Below, piece after piece: positions 1 through 6,984 of a DNA stretch of 6,984 nucleotides. Source of the DNA: a virus (Duplodnaviria > Heunggongvirae > Uroviricota > Caudoviricetes); IMG/VR virus record IMGVR_UViG_2663763286_000013, positions 1 through 6,984 of that record. One strand, written 5' to 3'. The translations under genes were made by a program, and so were the position numbers. The notes beneath the pieces were generated by a model, which saw only the letters and a list, made by a program, of their open reading frames with translations, had not been told where the DNA came from and made no database searches. Each line of letters starts with the position of its first letter. The stretch's first letter is position 1.

Positions 1-63
1 AAGAACCGTTCTGACAGCTTCGGCTTTGAACTCTTTAGAGTAACGTTGGGTTTTTCTGCTCAT
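1..63 (-). CDS. IS3-family transposase OrfA, N-terminal fragment (gene continues beyond window start)
   Basis: Reverse complement of 1-63 translates MSRKTQRYSKEFKAEAVRTVL, a typical IS3-family OrfA helix-turn-helix N-terminus. ATG is the complement of 61-63. An AAGGAG Shine-Dalgarno (complement of 70-75) lies 6 nt upstream. Not in the ORF track because it runs off the window. Confidence 0.8.
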   Translation of the reverse strand, partial: MSRKTQRYSKEFKAEAVRTVL

Positions 64-127
64 TATTAGCTCCTTCTGATGCCATTCTATTTCAGGAAGG
101 AGTGTCCGTTAAACTCAGGCTACCTCA
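1..127 (-). mobile_element. Left-hand IS3-family insertion sequence, terminal part (IR and orfA leader); outer end near 127
   Basis: Read on the minus strand from 127, the sequence starts TGAGGTAGCCTGAGTTTAACGGACAC, i.e. the 5'-TG terminus typical of IS3-family ends, about 64 nt upstream of the orfA ATG. The exact boundary is inferred, not proven. Confidence 0.55.
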
Positions 128-372
128 CTCTGGTATCTCGCGGTCGCGTAACGGCCCTAGAGGCGAATGCACAGGGAACATCCGGGATTCAGCTGTATGA
201 GGCATACAACAATGGCTACCCTTCCACCTATGGCAATGTGCTTCACCTTAAAGGTGCCACCGCTGCTGGCGAAGGTGAGTTATTCATTGGCTGGAGTGGC
301 ACGAGCGGTGACCATGCGCCCGTACATATCCGTTCGCGGCGTGATACTGATTCTGCCAACTGGTCTGAATGG
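128..372 (+). pseudogene. Upstream (N-proximal) fragment of the tail-fibre gene, cut by the IS and out of frame with the downstream part
   Basis: Frame 1 is open from 70 and encodes protein-like sequence (…[53 protein letters not shown]) up to about 372, then becomes low-complexity. Frame 0 is closed by TGA at 309-311 and 366-368 and only becomes tail-fibre-like from 369. Its upstream end abuts the IS terminus. Confidence 0.4.
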
Positions 373-1418
373 CGCAGGTCTATACGTCAAAAGATTCAAT
401 TCCCGGCGTCAATGCCAAAGGGGATCAGGACACCTCTGGTAATGCGGCTACAGCGACCAAGTTGCAGACAGCATGTACTATCAATGGCGTCTCGTTTGAT
501 GGTTCTACTGATATCACTTTAACCGCTGCGCATGTTGCTGCTTTTGCCAGAAGAGCAACGGATACGTATGCCGATGCGGATGGTGGCGTTCCCTGGAATG
601 CCGAATCAGGCGCTTACAATGTCACCCGCTCTGGCGACAGCTATATTCTGGTTAACTTCTATACCGGAGTCGGAAGTTGCCAGACCTTGCAGATGAAGGC
701 GCATTACAGAAATGGTGGTCTGTTCTACCGTTCTTCAAGAGACGGTTATGGTTTTGAGGAAGACTGGGCAGAAGTTTATACCTCGAAAAATCTTCCACAA
801 GAAAGCTACCCAGTCGGCGCACCAATCCCGTGGCCATCAGATACCGTTCCGTCTGGTTATGCCCTGATGCAGGGGCAGACTTTTGACAAATCTGCCTACC
901 CGAAACTTGCAGCCGCTTATCCGTCAGGCGTGATCCCTGATATGCGTGGCTGGACGATTAAGGGCAAGCCCGCCAGCGGTCGAGCCGTATTGTCTCAGGA
1001 ACAGGACGGCATTAAATCGCACACCCACAGCGCCAGTGCATCCAGTACGGATTTGGGGACGAAAACCACATCGTCGTTTGATTACGGTACTAAAACGACC
1101 AGTTCATTTGATTACGGCACAAAAACCACGAATAGCGCTGGAAATCATTCACACAATATACCTGTTGGTCACACTGGCGCGGGGAATGGTGTATCAGCCG
1201 GTTATAACGCTGCGTTAGGTACTGGTACCACGTCGAGCGCAGGCGGGCATGCTCACAATGTATATATCGGTGCCCATAACCACACTATCGGCATTGGTGC
1301 TCATGCCCATTCTGTCATTATTGGTCCCCACGGACACACCATCACCGTTAACGCTACGGGTAACGAAGAAAACACCGTAAAAAACATCGCATTTAACTAT
1401 ATTGTGAGGCTTGCATAA
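369..1418 (+). CDS. Phage tail fibre protein, C-terminal (distal, receptor-binding) part; probably a fragment of a disrupted longer gene
   Basis: 349-aa ORF with tail-fibre hallmarks: [12 protein letters not shown]…[15 protein letters not shown], a Gly/Thr/Ser-rich region, His-x-His repeats ([33 protein letters not shown]) and the C-terminus [11 protein letters not shown]. Its stop overlaps the start of the next gene (TAATG at 1416-1420). Confidence 0.8.
1056..1130 (+). repeat. Imperfect 30-bp tandem repeat (about 2.5 copies) inside the tail-fibre gene, encoding [10 protein letters not shown] repeats
   Basis: Codons 1056-1085 and 1086-1115 both encode [10 protein letters not shown]; 1116-1130 encodes GTKTT. 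Read directly from the sequence. Confidence 0.8.
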
Positions 1419-1996
1419 TGACATTCAGAATGAGTGAACAATCACGGACCATAAAAATTTATAATCTACTGGCCGGAACCAATGAGTTTATTGGTAAAGG
1501 TGATGCATACATTCCACCTCATACAGGTCTGCCTGCAAACAGTACCGATATTGCCCCGCCAGATATTCCGGCTGGCTTCGTGGCCGTTTTCAACAGTGAT
1601 GAGGCATCGTGGAATCTCGTTGAAGACCATCGGGGAAAAACCGTCTATGACGTGGCTTCCGGCGACGCGTTATTTATTTCTGAACTTGGCCCATTACCGG
1701 AAAATGTCACCTGGTTATCCCCGGAAGGGGAGTTTCAGAAGTGGAACGGCACAGCCTGGGTGAAAGATGCAGAAGCAGAAAAACTGTTCCGGATCCGGAA
1801 GGCGGAAGAAACAAAAAACAGCCTGATGCAGATGGCCAGTGAGCATATTGCGCCACTTCAGGATGCCGTAGATTTGGATATTGCGACGGAGGAAGAGGCA
1901 TCGTTACTGACTGCATGGAAGACATATCGGGTATTGTTGAATCGTGTTGATACAGCAGTAGCAGCGGATGTTGAGTGGCCAGTCGCCCCGCAATAA
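1418..1996 (+). CDS. Tail fibre assembly protein (Tfa, chaperone, lambda Tfa / Mu U family)
   Basis: 192-aa ORF translationally coupled to the tail fibre (ATG overlaps its TAA), with GAGG about 9 nt upstream. The C-terminal domain …[50 protein letters not shown] is the conserved Tfa C-terminal motif. Confidence 0.9.
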
Positions 1997-2039
1997 AAAG
2001 ATAAAGCCATCGATAGAAATATTGATGGCTTTATGTACT
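1997..2039. terminator. Bidirectional intrinsic terminator between the convergent tfa and acetyltransferase genes
   Basis: Perfect 9-bp stem aaagccatc (2003-2011) / gatggcttt (2024-2032) with a 12-nt loop. On the minus strand the hairpin is followed by AUCUUUUUAUU; on the plus strand by a weaker U-rich stretch. Confidence 0.55.
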
Positions 2040-2612
2040 CTATTTATACAATACAACACCGCTCTTTTTAGTAATATATGTGCAGTTCGATGGTATATCT
2101 TTATTTATAAAAGACATTGCACCTATTTTTACATTATCCCCAATTTTACGTGATAATCCAATGATGCAACAATTAGCTCCGATATCAACGTTGCTACCAA
2201 TTTTTACTCTTGAACCAGGTATGTCACCATCTATCTGTCCAATGGTCGTATTCTGTCGTAACACCAGATTTTCACCAGCATCAACAGCAAAATGAACAAC
2301 AATTCCAGCATGATGGGGAATTGTTAACCCTTTTCCAATATTTGCGCCCAATCCAATTTCACAACCAAATTTGTTAATTATTTTACTGTTTAACTTTTTG
2401 GCTGCTTTCTTATGTAATTTATTACCATTAATATGCATTTCATTAGCCAATCTCCACCAGAAAAGGAAATTCCGATTGCGCTGCCTCTTCTCTCTTAATA
2501 GTCGCCAAACATCCATTTTTTCACGCCTGATGACTTCAGCCATCCAATAGCTCAATAGAGCTTTTGAATTCCCAAAGATGACAAAGTGAATAGCTATTAA
2601 GTAACATAACAT
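2040..2612 (-). CDS. Hexapeptide-repeat (left-handed beta-helix) O-acetyltransferase, serine acetyltransferase (CysE)/WcaB-like; start codon uncertain
   Basis: 190-aa ORF containing …GCEIGLGANIGKGLTIPHHAGIVVHFAVDAGENLVLRQNTTIGQ… followed by further [LIV]-G-x-x-x-x hexapeptide repeats. AT-rich codon usage unlike the flanking phage genes. Both candidate starts (2612 and the internal ATG at 2543) have weak SD sequences. Confidence 0.7.
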   Translation of the reverse strand: MLCYLIAIHFVIFGNSKALLSYWMAEVIRREKMDVWRLLREKRQRNRNFLFWWRLANEMHINGNKLHKKAAKKLNSKIINKFGCEIGLGANIGKGLTIPHHAGIVVHFAVDAGENLVLRQNTTIGQIDGDIPGSRVKIGSNVDIGANCCIIGLSRKIGDNVKIGAMSFINKDIPSNCTYITKKSGVVLYK

Positions 2613-3100
2613 ATTGCAACTGCCTATATTTTTGGTTTCTATGGTTATATATCGACATTATAATTAAAACAATAAGCATCAGTGTGTTACTGCGTTCCTG
2701 CTAAACTAAACCAACGCACAATGTAAACACAAATATTAATTTTAAACTGAGCACTAAAGGGATGTCAATATTGTATTGATAATAAGTTGCAAGATTGCCA
2801 CTACTTTCTGTATTTTGGGATGCAATAATTTATATTTTATCTATTCAGTGTTTCTTTGGGCTTATTAAGGATGTCATTATTAATTTATGGCTTGCCATTT
2901 CTATACATATCTGTTAAAAATTTTGATTTGTCTATTGAAAATAGATTTAATTGATTGATTTAATTTTTACATGACGCTCTTTAATATAACTTCAGGTATA
3001 TTAAAGCACATGCATTATATCCAGAGAAAATTAACAAAATTGTTAGCCCTTATTTGTTGGGATTATAGATATTAATTAAGGCCCGATCCCGGGCCTTTCC
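2613..3100. other. AT-rich non-coding spacer; presumably holds the acetyltransferase promoter
   Basis: No ORF of 60 aa or more on either strand. Very AT-rich with short direct repeats (e.g. gatttaatt twice around 2945-2970). Function not determinable from sequence alone. Confidence 0.3.
3078..3097. terminator. GC-rich hairpin just downstream of the minus-strand tfa-relic stop codon; possible terminator remnant
   Basis: aaggcccg (3078-3085) / cgggcctt (3090-3097) form an 8-bp stem with a 4-nt loop. No clean U-tract on either strand, so confidence is low. Confidence 0.3.
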
Positions 3101-3337
3101 TCATTCCGGCTTTTCGGGAAACGTTACTGGAAGGATGGAGGTATCCGTGGATTCGACTTTCTGCGCATAGAGAATCCACTCGGTTAATTTTTGTTTACCC
3201 TGAACGGAAATAATGCCTAGCCGTAACTGTGAGTCCCAGAGCTGAGTTTTATCCCTGACGAGTTGTAGCAGGCTTTGCTTTTCTTTTTCCGCTTGTTGTC
3301 TTTGCATGACCGGTTGAGAAGTTACTTTGCATACCAT
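3101..3337 (-). pseudogene. Relic of a second tail fibre assembly gene (C-terminal domain only; U-prime-like), opposite in orientation to the intact tfa
   Basis: The minus-strand ORF ends …MQRQQAEKEKQSLLQLVRDKTQLWDSQLRLGIISVQGKQKLTEWILYAQKVESTDTSILPVTFPEKPE, which aligns with the C-terminal domain of the plus-strand Tfa (K-SL-Q…L-D…W-Y…V-T…WP-P pattern). The upstream part of the track ORF 3101-3598 is antisense to the holin-like gene and is not credible coding. Confidence 0.6.
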
Positions 3338-3365
3338 TACCTCCTGACAACGTAGGAGGGAACTT

Positions 3366-3695
3366 GTGCTTGACACACAGGAATTAGCTCCAGTTGCTAT
3401 TGCGCTCCTGCTTTCAGTAATTGGTGGGATAGGCACGTTCCTGATGGATGTCCGAGACGGTCGCCAGTCTGGCAATTTGTTGGGATTGGTTACGGAGATC
3501 TTTGTTGCAGTGACAGCTGGCGCGGTGGCGTACCTATTGGGGCAACACGAGGGCTGGGAGTTATCAATTACGTACTTAATGGTAACGATAGCCAGCAATA
3601 ACGGTCATGAGGTGATTTCAGGGATGAAACGAGTGAATATCGATAGCATTCTGAATGTTCTTACAAGTTTGGTGAAAAAGGGAGGCGGGAAATGA
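3366..3695 (+). CDS. lydA: Holin-like small membrane protein (3 predicted TM segments, charged C-terminus); candidate LydA-type holin
   Basis: GTG start preceded by AGGAGG (3354-3359) with a 6-nt spacer. Hydrophobic stretches LAPVAIALLLSVIGGIGTFLM, LLGLVTEIFVAVTAGAVAYLL and LSITYLMVTIA, then a basic tail …LVKKGGGK. First gene of a coupled five-gene operon. The gene symbol is by inferred homology to the P1 darA operon, not by a search. Confidence 0.6.
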   Translation: MLDTQELAPVAIALLLSVIGGIGTFLMDVRDGRQSGNLLGLVTEIFVAVTAGAVAYLLGQHEGWELSITYLMVTIASNNGHEVISGMKRVNIDSILNVLTSLVKKGGGK

Positions 3696-4135
3696 TTGGC
3701 TGGGGTGTATGCGTTCTTGCGTTAGCCTTAGCCGATCGCTATTTGCTAAAACGCAAGGACATCACGCATTTAGAACTTGGTGATGTGGAAATTAAACCGG
3801 GTTTCATCCGGGTGCCGTTCAAATACCGGTCTAAATTCCCGTTTTTGCGCGGCGCAACGGTCAGATATTGGATCCGCGATGTTCAGAAGCCAACGACAGT
3901 GATTGAAGGCGAACAACGTTGTCTGACGTCGGCTGAACAGGGCGAAAACAGTGAATGGTTGTACATACCCACTGAATATATGGGTAAAGGAGAACGGCTG
4001 TGGCATTTCAACGTCATGGTTACGCATGGCGACTCGTTCATTAACCCGTTGTATCGGATTTTCCCTGTTACTCAGCAAATCCGCAGAAGTTACGTAATAA
4101 ATCTCGCACAGGATGTGTCAGATGACGAAAAATAA
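3692..4135 (+). CDS. lydB: Membrane-anchored protein, candidate LydB-type antiholin
   Basis: ATG overlaps the upstream stop (ATGA at 3692-3695), with GGAGG at 3681-3685. N-terminal hydrophobic segment MIGWGVCVLALALA, then a soluble domain. Named by position and size in the inferred darA-type operon. Confidence 0.5.
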   Translation: MIGWGVCVLALALADRYLLKRKDITHLELGDVEIKPGFIRVPFKYRSKFPFLRGATVRYWIRDVQKPTTVIEGEQRCLTSAEQGENSEWLYIPTEYMGKGERLWHFNVMVTHGDSFINPLYRIFPVTQQIRRSYVINLAQDVSDDEK

Positions 4136-4724
4136 GTATGCAACGGTCGATTTTGACCAGGTTAATGAAAAGGGGCTGAAATCCCTTATCGCGGCGATCA
4201 ATAAAACCGGTGTTACGGTAATTGAGGTTGACTCCAGCAACCGCGCAACAACGAAAGATGGCGTTAAAGTTAAAACCGCAAAGCTGGTTCTTAACGACGG
4301 ACAAATTCTTGCCATACAGGTAAACGATACTGGCGATATATCGTCTGTGAGGCTGAATGGAAAAGCTATTCCTAACGCTCAATCGCCGGATATCAAGACG
4401 CTTGGTACCGTCATGGGGCAGGCGGCCCGCAAAAACTCCGCAAAATTCCAGAAATCACTGATCGCCAAAGCGAAACGTGTTGCCAATCCGGTAGACAAGA
4501 AACCGGCAGTAAAATCCAACTTTCAGCGCCTGCAAGAGGCAAAACAGCGGAATGCTCAGGTGGTTGCCGCTTATAAATCAGCGCAGAACTCGGTGTCTTT
4601 CAATCAACAGCAGATCACTGATTTGCGGGCGAAGCTGGATAAGGAGACAGGCCGACTCAATAACGAAAAGGCCCGAAATGGCGAACTCAAACGCCGTCTT
4701 AAGCAACTGAAAGCAGGAAATTAA
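4122..4724 (+). CDS. hdf: Hdf-like protein (homologue of a fragment of the downstream large protein) with a C-terminal coiled coil
   Basis: Probable start at the ATG at 4122 (AGGA at 4109-4112); the track ORF starts at 4113. Shares a conserved block with the next gene (…DGQ-I-I…TLG/AQV-M…KNSAKFQ followed by a Lys-rich coiled coil). The KNSAKFQ-coding 21-mer at 4430-4450 matches 5329-5349 at 19/21 nt. Confidence 0.55.
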   Translation: MTKNKYATVDFDQVNEKGLKSLIAAINKTGVTVIEVDSSNRATTKDGVKVKTAKLVLNDGQILAIQVNDTGDISSVRLNGKAIPNAQSPDIKTLGTVMGQAARKNSAKFQKSLIAKAKRVANPVDKKPAVKSNFQRLQEAKQRNAQVVAAYKSAQNSVSFNQQQITDLRAKLDKETGRLNNEKARNGELKRRLKQLKAGN

Positions 4725-4725
4725 C

Positions 4726-6645
4726 ATGGAACAGTTCAATATCAATAAAGGGGTGACGATCAAGCCTGGGCTTGACGTGCTTCCCCCGCCAGTGACTGAT
4801 GATGAATATCGCGCATTAATGGCCGGTGAGGACCGCTATCTGATGACGGAATCCAACACCCTGGAGGAAATCGAGGCTACGTTCTTCTATGACACGCCGA
4901 TCCACTGGTGTGCTACGGATTTACTGGAGGCGATTAGTTCTACTCGTTTGCAGTTACACCGGACCATGCAGGCATTTGTCCGGGCATTGAACCAGAAGCT
5001 GAATGGTACCGGAATCTCTGCGGGGAGTGATAAAACGGGGGATGTGGCCCAGAGCGGCGCGCGCGCGATCGGCGGAGCTGAAATTGGTCGGGCACGTAAC
5101 GTTAACGGGCTGTCGGTCCTGCCAGCCATTATTCCGCTCAGTGATGGTCAGACTATCAGCATTTTGTTTCATAGCCCGACAGCGGAAAACCGGATCACCA
5201 ATAGCGATACGCTGGTTGCTTTCCAGTTCTTACTGAATAAAAAAGACGTTACTCACACCGTTGCTCCGATGAGTGGACGTGATATGACGCTGGCGCAGGT
5301 CACCATGAAACTTGCCAACCTTGCAGAGAAAAACTCGGCAAAATTTCAGCGTGCGCAGAAGAAGAAAAAAGCCCTTGTTGATGAAATAACCCAACTACAG
5401 GCTGACAGTGACCAGAAAGAGGATGCCATGAGCGACCTCGTGGATCAGGTGGCAGCGGTAGAAGGGCAGAAGGTAGATCTGGAGCAGAAAATTAACGCTG
5501 TTGCATCGGAAGCGGATTCTCTTTATGAAGAGAATGAGCGTTTGCAGACGGAGATTGATCAGCTCAATCGAACTGGTGGGCGCGAAACCATTGCTCCTGC
5601 GGGGATGACTGGTGGACACTCTCGCGCGATGACGGATCGCCTTGCAAGTATCAAAAATCGTATGCATATGAACGGGGAAGTGACGCTCAGTAATGGTGCA
5701 TCAATGAAGCAATTCATTGAGGACGGTGAAGGGTATATCCAGTTAACCGATTCGGATGGCAGCGTGTACATGATCAAGGCTAAATCCATACAGGGTGTGG
5801 ACATGGCAGATGCGATCGGCAAGCTGTTTAAAGCCTATAAAGCGGGTAATGTATCGGAATACCTAGTCCAACCAGAAGAACATAAACCGGAAAACGTCGA
5901 ACCTGAACCAGCGGAGGATACCGGTAGCTCTTCGCCTGAACCAGAAGTCTCTGTAGGTGCATATCGATATGCCCTGCAAATGCGTCCGGCGGCCCCTGGC
6001 GCAATACCTGAAGGTAACAAAGCAATTCTGCCGCGCCCTGATGAAGGTGACCCGTATTATGAATATGCACGCTACGGCATTGCTACTTACGATACCCCGC
6101 TTTCTGATCAGCAAATGAGTGAGTACGACCTGAAGTTATTGCCTCGCGAGGATTCTTTCGACTTCCTGGCGAAGACACTTACTAATGGTCCGTTTGGCAA
6201 ATATGCACAAAAAGCTCTGGAGCTGGCCACCAGCTCACCAGACGAGTTCCGCGTAATGCTGAAAACTCAGTTTCAAAAAACTTTCCCCAATATTGCGTAT
6301 CCGGGGGGCGCTGGCACCGAGAAAATGGTGCAGAGCATGATCAATGCATTGCAGGCCGAAGTCGGTGAGATTACTCAGCCAGAACCTGCCCCGGCACAGC
6401 CTGATGAAACGGTTAGCGAAGCAGATGCAGAGGCTAATAAAGCCATTGAATATCTCAATAACGTGATGGATATGCAAAGCACTGACATGGCGGAGATCCG
6501 TAACGCCCGGGGTAATGTCCGGGAAGCGATTGCAGCCCTTCAGGCTGCCGGGCGTTTTGAGGAAAACGAAGAGCTGGTTAATGGCGCTGCTCGCCACCTG
6601 GCTGATCTGCTGGTAGCAATCCAGAAAGCGGGGGTAGCGGCATGA
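4726..6645 (+). CDS. darA: Large DarA-like protein (639 aa): candidate capsid-packaged antirestriction protein
   Basis: ATG at 4726 with AGGA 7 nt upstream, immediately after the upstream stop. Has a central coiled coil (…ALVDEITQLQADSDQKEDAMSDLVDQVAAVEGQKVDLEQKINAVASEADSLYEENERLQTEIDQL…) and acidic Pro/Glu-rich linkers. Its N-proximal region is paralogous to the preceding gene. Assignment to DarA is an inference from operon architecture and size. Confidence 0.55.
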   Translation: MEQFNINKGVTIKPGLDVLPPPVTDDEYRALMAGEDRYLMTESNTLEEIEATFFYDTPIHWCATDLLEAISSTRLQLHRTMQAFVRALNQKLNGTGISAGSDKTGDVAQSGARAIGGAEIGRARNVNGLSVLPAIIPLSDGQTISILFHSPTAENRITNSDTLVAFQFLLNKKDVTHTVAPMSGRDMTLAQVTMKLANLAEKNSAKFQRAQKKKKALVDEITQLQADSDQKEDAMSDLVDQVAAVEGQKVDLEQKINAVASEADSLYEENERLQTEIDQLNRTGGRETIAPAGMTGGHSRAMTDRLASIKNRMHMNGEVTLSNGASMKQFIEDGEGYIQLTDSDGSVYMIKAKSIQGVDMADAIGKLFKAYKAGNVSEYLVQPEEHKPENVEPEPAEDTGSSSPEPEVSVGAYRYALQMRPAAPGAIPEGNKAILPRPDEGDPYYEYARYGIATYDTPLSDQQMSEYDLKLLPREDSFDFLAKTLTNGPFGKYAQKALELATSSPDEFRVMLKTQFQKTFPNIAYPGGAGTEKMVQSMINALQAEVGEITQPEPAPAQPDETVSEADAEANKAIEYLNNVMDMQSTDMAEIRNARGNVREAIAALQAAGRFEENEELVNGAARHLADLLVAIQKAGVAA

Positions 6646-6782
6646 CACTATCAGCTATTGAGTTAATGGATCTCAGCGATAAGTTGGATGCTCTGATGTC
6701 CAAAGCGGCTACCGCGAGTGGCATGGAGTTGCTGGATATCAGCGATGAAATTGACCAGATCATGCAACAGATGGGGTACTGA
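6642..6782 (+). CDS. Small ORF (46 aa) coupled to the DarA-like gene; possibly a 3'-truncated ddrA-like gene whose stop codon is supplied by the IS end
   Basis: ATG at 6642 overlaps the upstream TGA (ATGA). Encodes MTLSAIELMDLSDKLDALMSKAATASGMELLDISDEIDQIMQQMGY, with an internal 14-aa duplication. Its stop TGA (6780-6782) is the first three bases of the IS inverted repeat TGAACCGCC. Below the ORF-track length cutoff. Confidence 0.5.
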   Translation: MTLSAIELMDLSDKLDALMSKAATASGMELLDISDEIDQIMQQMGY

Positions 6783-6867
6783 ACCGCCCCGGGTTTCCTG
6801 GAGAGTATTTTATCTGTGAACTCTGAACCGCCCCGGGTTTCCTGGAGAGTATTTTATCTGTGAACTC
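6780..6867. repeat. Perfect 44-bp tandem duplication of the IS terminal inverted repeat
   Basis: 6780-6823 and 6824-6867 are both tgaaccgccccgggtttcctggagagtattttatctgtgaactc. The repeat starts with the IS3-group terminal motif TGAACCGCCCCGGG. Confidence 0.9.
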
Positions 6868-6984
6868 AGGCTGCCAGATCATTATTTCCGATGGAAGCAT
6901 AATAAGCTTTTTCTGCTTCTGCCGGAGGAATATGGCCCAGCCTTTCCAGCAATCGTCGATTGTTATACCAGTCCACCCACGTTA
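6824..6984 (-). mobile_element. Right-hand IS3-family insertion sequence (IS629/IS3411-like end), right inverted repeat plus orfB 3' end; continues beyond the window
   Basis: Terminal sequence TGAACCGCCCCGGGTTTCCTGGAGAG is an IS3-group-type inverted repeat, immediately followed by the stop of a minus-strand transposase orfB. Confidence 0.75.
6866..6984 (-). CDS. IS3-family transposase OrfB, C-terminal fragment (gene start beyond window end)
   Basis: Reverse complement of 6866-6984 translates …TWVDWYNNRRLLERLGHIPPAEAEKAYYASIGNNDLAA then stop (complement of tca at 6866-6868). This is the conserved C-terminal tail of IS3-family integrase-type transposases. Confidence 0.8.
   Translation of the reverse strand, partial: TWVDWYNNRRLLERLGHIPPAEAEKAYYASIGNNDLAA

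What the first reader, a model, noticed from the sequence alone, without database searches (positions are those of the whole stretch)
3366..6782. Five-gene coupled operon (holin-like, membrane protein, Hdf-like, 639-aa DarA-like, small ORF) resembling the phage P1 darA antirestriction operon
Five plus-strand genes are linked by overlapping or abutting start and stop codons (3692/3695, 4122/4135, 4724/4726, 6642/6645), and each has an SD sequence. The content is a 3-TM holin-like protein, a membrane-anchored protein, a 200-aa protein paralogous to part of the next gene, a 639-aa coiled-coil protein with acidic linkers, and a tiny ORF. This matches what is known of the P1 darA operon (lydA, lydB, hdf meaning homologue of DarA fragment, darA, ddrA), whose products are packaged into capsids and protect injected DNA from type I restriction. 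As in P1, the operon sits next to the tail-fibre region. If correct, this is a Dar-type counter-defence module in a rearranged, IS-flanked context. If not, it is an uncharacterised holin-associated operon and deserves attention in its own right.
Basis: partly seen in the sequence, partly recalled or inferred. Interest (0 to 1): 0.75.

Follow-up and report, generated by a model that had tools for sequence, protein, structure and literature searches.

The report
Phage P1 dar operon, IS-truncated copy
This is the well-studied phage P1 "defence against restriction" (dar) operon, about 98% identical to P1 itself, sitting on a P1-like prophage-plasmid fragment; its fifth gene has been cut short by an insertion sequence, so it is an ordinary, already known and partly damaged copy.

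Summary
The five coupled plus-strand genes are real and sit at the stated coordinates. They are the promoter-proximal part of the phage P1 dar late operon itself, not just something like it. DNA 3306-6779 is 98.2% identical to P1 and 99.5% to phage vB_EcoM-Ro157c2YLVW. Identity to the P1 proteins is LydA 109/109, LydB 145/147, Hdf 200/203 and DarA 623/639. The LPdar late promoter (3319-3337) is base-for-base identical. Pfam, PHROG and NCBIfam (anti_RE_DarA equivalog, 1086 bits) agree. DarA and Hdf match the P1 cryo-EM chains 9ukm_I and 9ukm_H over their full length.

The "tiny ORF" is not a native small gene. It is ddrA cut after codon 46 of 121 by an IS629/IS1203 end, whose first three bases supply the stop codon. 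ddrB and the rest of the operon are therefore missing from the window.

The window is a complete 6,984-bp draft contig (JXWD01000094.1) that ends in IS600 on the left and IS629 on the right. The tail-fibre gene upstream is cut by IS600 and also frameshifted. Three other assemblies share the ddrA/IS629 junction, and two of them share the frameshift. The P1-like element is therefore probably defective.

The parts
3319..3337 (+). LPdar, the Lpa-dependent P1 late promoter (-22 box and -10). Homology with P1 starts at about 3306-3309.
   Evidence: The 19-nt sequence AAGTTACTTTGCATACCAT is identical to the annotated LPdar of NC_005856. The alignment shows where P1 homology begins.
3366..3695 (+). 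lydA, holin (109 aa, GTG start)
   Evidence: 109/109 identical to P1 LydA, with 0 nt differences. Matches PF16083 and phrog_1527 holin at 4e-49. Two hydrophobic segments, residues 9-27 and 38-56.
3692..4135 (+). lydB, antagonist (antiholin) of the LydA holin (147 aa)
   Evidence: 145/147 identical to P1 LydB. Matches PF16084 LydB at 8e-104 over its full length and phrog_1898.
4122..4724 (+). hdf, 'homologue of DarA fragment' (200 aa; 203 aa if started at 4113 as in the P1 record). Head-internal partner of DarA.
   Evidence: 200/203 identical to P1 Hdf. Matches DarA_N at 1.5e-21 and phrog_1620 at 4e-80. Matches PDB 9ukm_H 'Hdf' at 9e-119, query residues 1-200 against chain residues 4-203. AGGA lies 8 nt upstream of 4122.
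4726..6645 (+). darA, antirestriction phage head protein DarA (639 aa)
   Evidence: 623/639 identical to P1 DarA. Matches DarA_N at 3e-42 and DarA_C at 6e-17. NCBIfam NF052326 equivalog scores 1085.8 bits against a cut-off of 350. Matches PDB 9ukm_I over residues 1-639, E=0.
6642..6782 (+). ddrA', a truncated ddrA. Codons 1-46 of 121 occupy 6642-6779; the stop codon TGA (6780-6782) comes from the IS end.
   Evidence: 46/46 identical to the N-terminus of P1 DdrA (121 aa). Covers positions 1-46 of the 114-position profile phrog_1855. In P1, Ro157c2YLVW and L003 the sequence continues GGC/GGT..., whereas here it continues with the IS repeat.
6780..6984 (-). Right end of an IS3-family IS629/IS1203 element (terminal inverted repeat plus the 3' end of the transposase gene). 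It interrupts ddrA and ends the contig. The 44-nt terminal repeat is present twice in tandem (6780-6823 and 6824-6867).
   Evidence: Sequence read directly. 100% identical to IS3-family transposase ends in O157:H7 and O26 genomes, but those matches span about 163 nt, i.e. without the duplication. The same junction occurs without the duplication in L005 and L006.

Best explanation
The region is the promoter-proximal part of the phage P1 dar (darA) late operon, carried on a fragment of a P1-like (Punavirus) prophage-plasmid. All its closest relatives are plasmids and phages of E. coli, many of them STEC.

Mechanism, taken from published work on P1 and not shown here. During lytic growth the late promoter LPdar drives lydA, lydB, hdf, darA, ddrA and ddrB. 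LydA is the main canonical holin and works with the SAR-endolysin Lyz. LydB delays it, acting as an antiholin. Hdf and DarA are built into the procapsid early. In the virion, 55 DarA-Hdf pairs sit on the inner capsid surface at the penton-hexon junctions and contact the DNA. [quoted passage not shown] The Dar proteins are ejected with the DNA and protect it, in cis, from type I restriction. The DarA/DdrA branch acts against EcoA and StySA. The DarB branch acts against EcoB and EcoK.

State of this copy. lydA, lydB, hdf and darA are intact. ddrA is cut after codon 46 by IS629/IS1203, which also separates ddrB from its promoter.

Inference. At best the copy could supply holin, antiholin and the Hdf/DarA scaffold, while the DdrA-dependent function is lost. 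The neighbouring tail-fibre gene is both IS-truncated and frameshifted, so the element is probably a decaying, non-infective prophage. I put that last step at about 0.6.
For: Identity:
- megablast finds 19 phage records covering at least 80% of 3300-6800 at 98.2-99.5% identity. They include P1 (NC_005856, AF234172), P7, RCS47, SJ46 and Ro157c2YLVW, annotated lydA/lydB/hdf/darA/ddrA (annotations).
- Per-gene identity to P1 is 97.5-100%, with synonymous changes outnumbering non-synonymous ones (lydB 4:2, hdf 11:3, darA 22:16) and ORF lengths conserved.
- LPdar is identical.
- Family models agree, and there are solved P1 structures of DarA and Hdf.

Truncation:
- Searches show it directly.
- The same ddrA/IS629 junction occurs in three other assemblies (L005, L006, L009), so it is not an assembly chimera.

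Decay:
- The S tail-fibre gene is cut by IS600 at about 127.
- S also carries a 1-nt deletion at about 370, shared by L005 and L006 but absent from Ro157c2YLVW and L003.
- L006 has a further IS629 insertion and a deletion, and L009 has an indel that splits darA.

Mechanism: PMC12810830, the PMC9024508 table, PMC12707154 and PMC9025707.
Against: Nothing argues against the identity.

The functional state is less certain:
- The window is only one 7-kb contig, so the rest of the P1-like element may exist intact on other contigs of the same assembly. That includes the 3' part of ddrA, ddrB, darB, ulx, lpa, pro and the capsid genes.
- ddrB could still be expressed from an outward IS promoter.
- The four intact genes show no lesion.
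- No expression or phenotype data were available.
- The organism name of GCA_000948825.1 could not be retrieved. The E. coli assignment rests on nearest relatives.
Confidence: 0.93

Rival explanations
1. Despite the IS insertion, the module belongs to a still active P1-like phage-plasmid and works as a (reduced) antirestriction and lysis module. Hdf and DarA are packaged, and ddrB, darB and ulx are expressed from elsewhere.
For: lydA, lydB, hdf, darA and LPdar are intact and under apparent purifying selection relative to P1. Closely related intact plasmids and phages exist at 99.5-99.7% identity. Only 7 kb of the element is visible.
Against: ddrA is cut at codon 46 of 121, and the operon is broken before ddrB. 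The tail-fibre gene S is truncated by IS600 and frameshifted in the same lineage. Sister assemblies carry further IS insertions, deletions and a darA indel. None of 5,426 complete E. coli genomes carries this junction.
Confidence: 0.25
2. An uncharacterised holin-associated operon, toxin or abortive-infection system that only superficially resembles the P1 dar operon.
For: None found.
Against: Near-identity to P1 at the DNA and protein level, with an identical promoter. Curated equivalog and Pfam hits are far above their cut-offs. Full-length matches to solved P1 DarA and Hdf chains.
Confidence: 0.01
3. The ddrA/IS junction, and hence the 46-aa ORF, is an assembly artefact of a short-read draft contig that collapsed onto a repeat; the real genome has an intact ddrA.
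For: The window is a whole draft contig that ends in IS sequence at both ends. It carries an odd tandem duplication of the 44-nt IS end that no related assembly or complete genome shows.
Against: Exactly the same junction (…ATGGGGTAC|TGAACCGCCCC…) is found in three independent assemblies (L005, L006, L009). The first two also share the S-gene frameshift.
Confidence: 0.03

Closest known systems
Phage P1 dar (darA) late operon: LPdar-lydA-lydB-hdf-darA-ddrA-ddrB (NC_005856.1 about 24.5-31.2 kb; also AJ000741)
   Same: Same genes in the same order, with the same overlapping start/stop junctions and an identical LPdar. Identity is 98.2% at the nucleotide level and 97.5-100% at the protein level. 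Same Pfam, PHROG and NCBIfam families. Matches the solved P1 DarA and Hdf chains.
   Different: ddrA is truncated after codon 46 by IS629/IS1203. ddrB, iddB and hxr are absent from the window. Upstream, P1 has lydC, cin and the invertible C segment, whereas homology here ends at about 3306 and a different, fixed tail-fibre module precedes the operon.
Escherichia phage vB_EcoM-Ro157c2YLVW (NC_050153) and P1-like plasmids of O157:H7, O111 and O26 E. coli (e.g. NZ_CP038378, NZ_CP169021)
   Same: Collinear over window 127-6779 at 99.5-99.7% identity: tail fibre, tfa, serine acetyltransferase, U' remnant, lydA, lydB, hdf, darA.
   Different: These relatives have full-length S and ddrA followed by ddrB. 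The window lineage has IS600 in S, a 1-nt deletion in S, and IS629 in ddrA.
Phage P7 dar region (AF503408; genes named odaE = hdf and odaC = ddrA)
   Same: 98.9% nucleotide identity over the operon.
   Different: Only the naming differs. P7 carries a full-length ddrA homologue.

Membership tests
Phage P1 Dar antirestriction system (dar operon) | DarA protein: about 639 aa, with DarA_N and DarA_C domains, orthologous to P1 DarA | tested here: met
   623/639 identical to P1 DarA. Carries PF18788 and PF18789. NCBIfam equivalog NF052326 scores 1085.8 bits against a cut-off of 350. Full-length match to PDB 9ukm_I.
Phage P1 Dar antirestriction system (dar operon) | Hdf, a DarA_N-containing paralogue encoded immediately upstream of darA | tested here: met
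   200/203 identical to P1 Hdf. Carries PF18788 and matches phrog_1620 and PDB 9ukm_H. Paralogy to DarA is shown by BLASTP, 31% over 90 aa.
Phage P1 Dar antirestriction system (dar operon) | Gene order lydA-lydB-hdf-darA-ddrA-ddrB, transcribed from the Lpa-dependent late promoter LPdar | tested here: inconclusive
   The order lydA-lydB-hdf-darA-ddrA' and an identical LPdar are present. The operon is broken inside ddrA by IS629, and ddrB is not in the window.
Phage P1 Dar antirestriction system (dar operon) | Full-length DdrA (121 aa), the component listed as EcoA antagonist | tested here: not met
   Only codons 1-46 remain, followed by a stop codon from the IS end. The role of DdrA is taken from the table in PMC9024508.
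Phage P1 Dar antirestriction system (dar operon) | Unlinked partners darB and ulx, plus the prohead protease and capsid into which the Dar proteins are packaged | not testable with these tools
   The window is a single 6,984-bp contig of a draft assembly. The other contigs of GCA_000948825.1 could not be queried.
Phage P1 Dar antirestriction system (dar operon) | Dar proteins are packaged into the virion, co-ejected with the DNA, and protect it in cis from type I restriction | not testable with these tools
   This needs experiments. It is known for P1 itself (PMC12810830, PMC12707154).
P1 LydA/LydB holin-antiholin pair | LydA holin (PF16083, two TM helices) followed by an overlapping lydB (PF16084) | tested here: met
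   LydA is 100% and LydB 98.6% identical to P1. Pfam hits. Two hydrophobic segments in LydA. ATGA overlap between the genes. Function as described in PMC9025707.

The most novel reading that the evidence does not exclude
A lydA-lydB-hdf-darA remnant might be kept by the host in an otherwise decaying P1-like element because it still does something useful without a working phage. Examples would be holin/antiholin-mediated release of cell contents, or DarA/Hdf supplied in trans to superinfecting P1-like phages. These four genes stay intact while flanking genes accumulate IS insertions, frameshifts and deletions in several related strains. Separately, the tandem duplication of the 44-nt IS629 end could be a real, unusual transposition product rather than an assembly error.
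Probability: 0.04. Interest if true: 0.3.

Novelty: already known. Interest (0 to 1): 0.07.

Why it matters
It matters little beyond correct annotation. The P1 dar operon has been studied genetically since the 1980s, dissected biochemically in 2017 (Piya et al., cited in PMC12810830) and solved by cryo-EM in 2026 (PMC12810830). Identical or near-identical copies are annotated in 19 phage records and in dozens of E. coli plasmids.

The useful outcomes here are:
- The 'tiny ORF' should be annotated as an IS629-truncated ddrA pseudogene, not as a gene.
- This copy belongs to an IS-riddled, probably defective P1-like element, and should not be counted as an intact counter-defence module in surveys.

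Tried and rejected
- An exact-match scan of genome contigs for the ddrA/IS629 junction found nothing. That collection holds one genome per species, so the result says little.
- A literature search for the assembly or WGS accession found nothing, so the strain name remains unknown.
- Piya et al. 2017 (PMC6011833) is not held in the library. Its conclusions are cited second-hand from PMC12810830 and PMC9024508.
- In the 46-aa protein look-up, four contigs (L007, L008, L010, L011) looked at first like extra cases of the truncation. Their sequence continues 'GG', as in intact ddrA, and the contigs simply end there. They were rejected as evidence.
- H46 (an O111:H8 plasmid) seemed to cover the IS end of the window, but its IS1203 lies in lydB, not ddrA.
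- Consensus promoter and terminator scans gave no more hits than shuffled controls. They found no internal terminator in the operon apart from hairpins inside the IS repeat.
- Minus-strand ORFs inside darA (e.g. 6235-6648, 137 aa) have no counterpart in any annotation and were treated as spurious.
- The expensive protein-database, structure-prediction and fold searches were not run. Near-identity to P1 made them unnecessary.
Full report
**Observation**

The six-frame ORF list shows five plus-strand ORFs:
- 3366-3695 (109 aa, GTG start)
- 3692-4135 (147 aa)
- 4113-4724 (203 aa; 200 aa from the ATG at 4122)
- 4726-6645 (639 aa)
- 6642-6782 (46 aa)

There are ATGA overlaps at 3692/3695 and 6642/6645. 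lydB and hdf overlap by 14 nt if hdf starts at 4122. There is a 1-nt gap between the hdf stop and the darA start.

Shine-Dalgarno motifs are obvious for genes 1 and 2, for gene 3 at 4122 and for gene 4. The motif is weak for gene 5. AGGA lies 8 nt upstream of 4122, whereas 4113 has no usable motif. It is also the start used in the Ro157c2YLVW annotation.

**Identity**

A megablast of 3300-6800 against GenBank phages found 20 records, and 19 of them cover at least 80% of the query at 98.2-99.5% identity. They include P1 (NC_005856, AF234172/3, AJ000741), P7, RCS47, SJ46, phi456 and vB_EcoM-Ro157c2YLVW. The features under the matches are annotated lydA, lydB, hdf, darA and ddrA.

The P1 record places these genes in the same order behind the late promoter LPdar, followed by ddrB, iddB and hxr.

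| Gene | Identity to P1 protein | Note |
|---|---|---|
| lydA | 109/109 | 0 nt differences |
| lydB | 145/147 | |
| hdf | 200/203 | |
| darA | 623/639 | |
| ddrA | 46/46 | only the part that is present |

Synonymous codon changes outnumber non-synonymous ones in each intact gene that differs from P1. The 19-nt LPdar sequence is identical at window 3319-3337. Homology to P1 starts at about 3306-3309.

Profile searches agree:
- Pfam: Phage_holin_3_3, LydB (8e-104), DarA_N in Hdf, DarA_N plus DarA_C in DarA.
- PHROGs: holin, lysis determining protein, Hdf-like antirestriction, the DarA family phrog_1926 and DdrA-like.
- NCBIfam: equivalog NF052326 'antirestriction phage head protein DarA', 1085.8 bits against a cut-off of 350.
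- Solved structures: DarA and Hdf match chains 9ukm_I and 9ukm_H (also entry 9vz0) over their full length.

P1 DdrA is 121 aa. Here the reading frame follows P1 exactly for 46 codons and then runs into TGAACCGCCCCGGGTTTCCTGGAGAG…, the terminal inverted repeat of an IS3-family IS629/IS1203 element. The first three bases of that repeat are the stop codon. The 'tiny ORF' is thus a truncated ddrA. The rest of the operon (the 3' part of ddrA, ddrB and beyond) is not in the window.

The window is the complete 6,984-bp contig JXWD01000094.1 of draft assembly GCA_000948825.1. Its left 126-127 bases are the end of an IS600-family element on the minus strand, which cuts the tail-fibre gene S. The 'IS-flanked' context is therefore real, and it also explains why the assembler stopped at both ends.

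The ddrA/IS629 junction is not an assembly chimera. Exactly the same junction is present in three other assemblies, L005 (GCA_045758245.1), L006 (GCA_005384205.1) and L009 (SRR4176413). No complete E. coli genome or PLSDB plasmid carries it. The one apparent exception, H46, has its IS1203 in lydB instead.

**Signs of decay**

- Compared with Ro157c2YLVW, the window differs by 37 substitutions and one internal indel over 127-6779. The indel is a 1-nt deletion in a G-run at about 370 that frameshifts the tail-fibre gene. L005 and L006 share it, so it is a lineage feature and not a read error.
- L006 also has IS629 inserted into the IS600 end, and it lacks window 2437-3012. L009 has an indel that splits darA into 563 aa and 93 aa products.
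- Together with the two IS insertions, this points to a P1-like element that is being eroded in an IS629-rich E. coli background.
- The nearest intact relatives, at 99.7%, include P1-like plasmids of O157:H7 strains.
- I rate 'defective relic' at about 0.6, because only 7 kb of the element is visible.

**Mechanism (from the literature on P1, not tested here)**

The dar operon is a late operon that encodes both lysis and antirestriction/capsid functions (PMC9025707).

Lysis functions:
- LydA is the main canonical holin. It has class II holin features, and two TM helices are predicted for it, and it cooperates with the SAR-endolysin Lyz.
- LydB delays LydA-dependent lysis and has no predicted TM domain.
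- My hydropathy scan likewise finds two strong hydrophobic segments in LydA, and only a borderline N-terminal one in LydB.

Antirestriction functions:
- Hdf and DarA are incorporated first and are needed for packaging of the others and for normal head size.
- The proteins are ejected with the DNA and protect it in cis from type I restriction (PMC12810830; PMC12707154).
- A proteomics table lists DdrA as 'antagonist of EcoA endonuclease', DdrB as aiding DarB addition, and DarB as the inhibitor of EcoK and EcoB (PMC9024508).
- Cryo-EM shows 55 DarA-Hdf pairs on the inner capsid surface at the penton-hexon junctions. They are held together by parallel helices and present a positively charged face to the DNA. 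DarA residues 1-69 were not visible, which the authors take to be consistent with cleavage by the prohead protease.

Inference for this copy: holin, antiholin, Hdf and DarA could still be made if the late activator is present. DdrA is lost, and ddrB is uncoupled from LPdar by about 1.3 kb of IS.

**Comparison and verdict**

This is the P1 dar operon itself, in the variant context also seen in phage Ro157c2YLVW. In that context a fixed tail-fibre module, an acetyltransferase and a U' remnant replace P1's C segment, cin and lydC. It is already known and routinely annotated; for example, PGAP names 'antirestriction phage head protein DarA' in NZ_AP038984. The only additions are the ddrA truncation and the evidence of decay. 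Interest is low.

Noticed in passing
window 6780-6867: The 44-nt terminal inverted repeat of IS629/IS1203 (TGAACCGCCCCGGGTTTCCTGGAGAGTATTTTATCTGTGAACTC) is present twice in direct tandem. Sister assemblies with the same junction (L005, L006) have one copy, as do the best-matching IS copies in complete E. coli genomes (matches span about 163 nt). This is either an assembly artefact or an unusual IS end.
   Followed up: partly
window 1-127 (minus strand): End of an IS600-family IS3 element (the orfA start, MSRKTQRYSKEFKAEAVRTVL, reads on the minus strand). It truncates the tail-fibre gene S. In L006 this IS600 end has itself been hit by an IS629 insertion, at the position corresponding to window ~100.
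   Followed up: partly
window ~370 (tail-fibre gene S, 128-1418): A 1-nt deletion in a G-run (GGG to GG) frameshifts the tail-fibre gene relative to Ro157c2YLVW and an O111:H8 plasmid. The same deletion is in L005 and L006, so it is a real lineage mutation. This is why the ORF list shows 79-522 and 369-1418 in different frames.
   Followed up: yes
window 2000-3100; CDS 2040-2612 (minus strand): A low-GC island (27-37% GC, against about 50% in the flanks) lies between tfa and the U' remnant. It carries a 190-aa hexapeptide-repeat acetyltransferase (phrog_2154; weak EpsC/CysE/WcaB-like NCBIfam hits below cut-off) followed by about 490 bp of AT-rich DNA containing only short ORFs (30-47 aa). It looks like a moron, possibly for polysaccharide or O-antigen acetylation. 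It is shared with Ro157c2YLVW and many P1-like plasmids and is partly deleted in L006.
   Followed up: partly
window 1761-1959 (+): Rfam family IS009 (RF02111) matches at 192.7 bits (gathering score 117), entirely inside the tail-fibre assembly gene tfa (1418-1996). It most likely reflects sequence conservation of tfa-like genes rather than a separate RNA gene.
   Followed up: no
window 3101-3337 (minus strand): A 78-aa remnant of a U'-type tail-fibre assembly chaperone (Caudo_TAP C-terminus) lies directly upstream of, and divergent from, lydA. Its 5' end overlaps the LPdar region. It marks where the invertible C segment, cin and lydC of P1 have been replaced.
   Followed up: partly
L009 (SRR4176413), darA: A related sample with the same ddrA::IS629 junction has a 1-nt indel that splits darA into 563-aa and 93-aa ORFs. 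This is either further decay or a contig error.
   Followed up: no
L007, L008, L010, L011 (contig ends): Four unrelated short-read contigs end 2 nt after codon 46 of an intact ddrA, which is exactly where IS629 sits in the window. They probably break at a GGC/GGT polymorphism and were picked out only because the look-up was by the 46-aa sequence. The coincidence of position was not explained further.
   Followed up: partly
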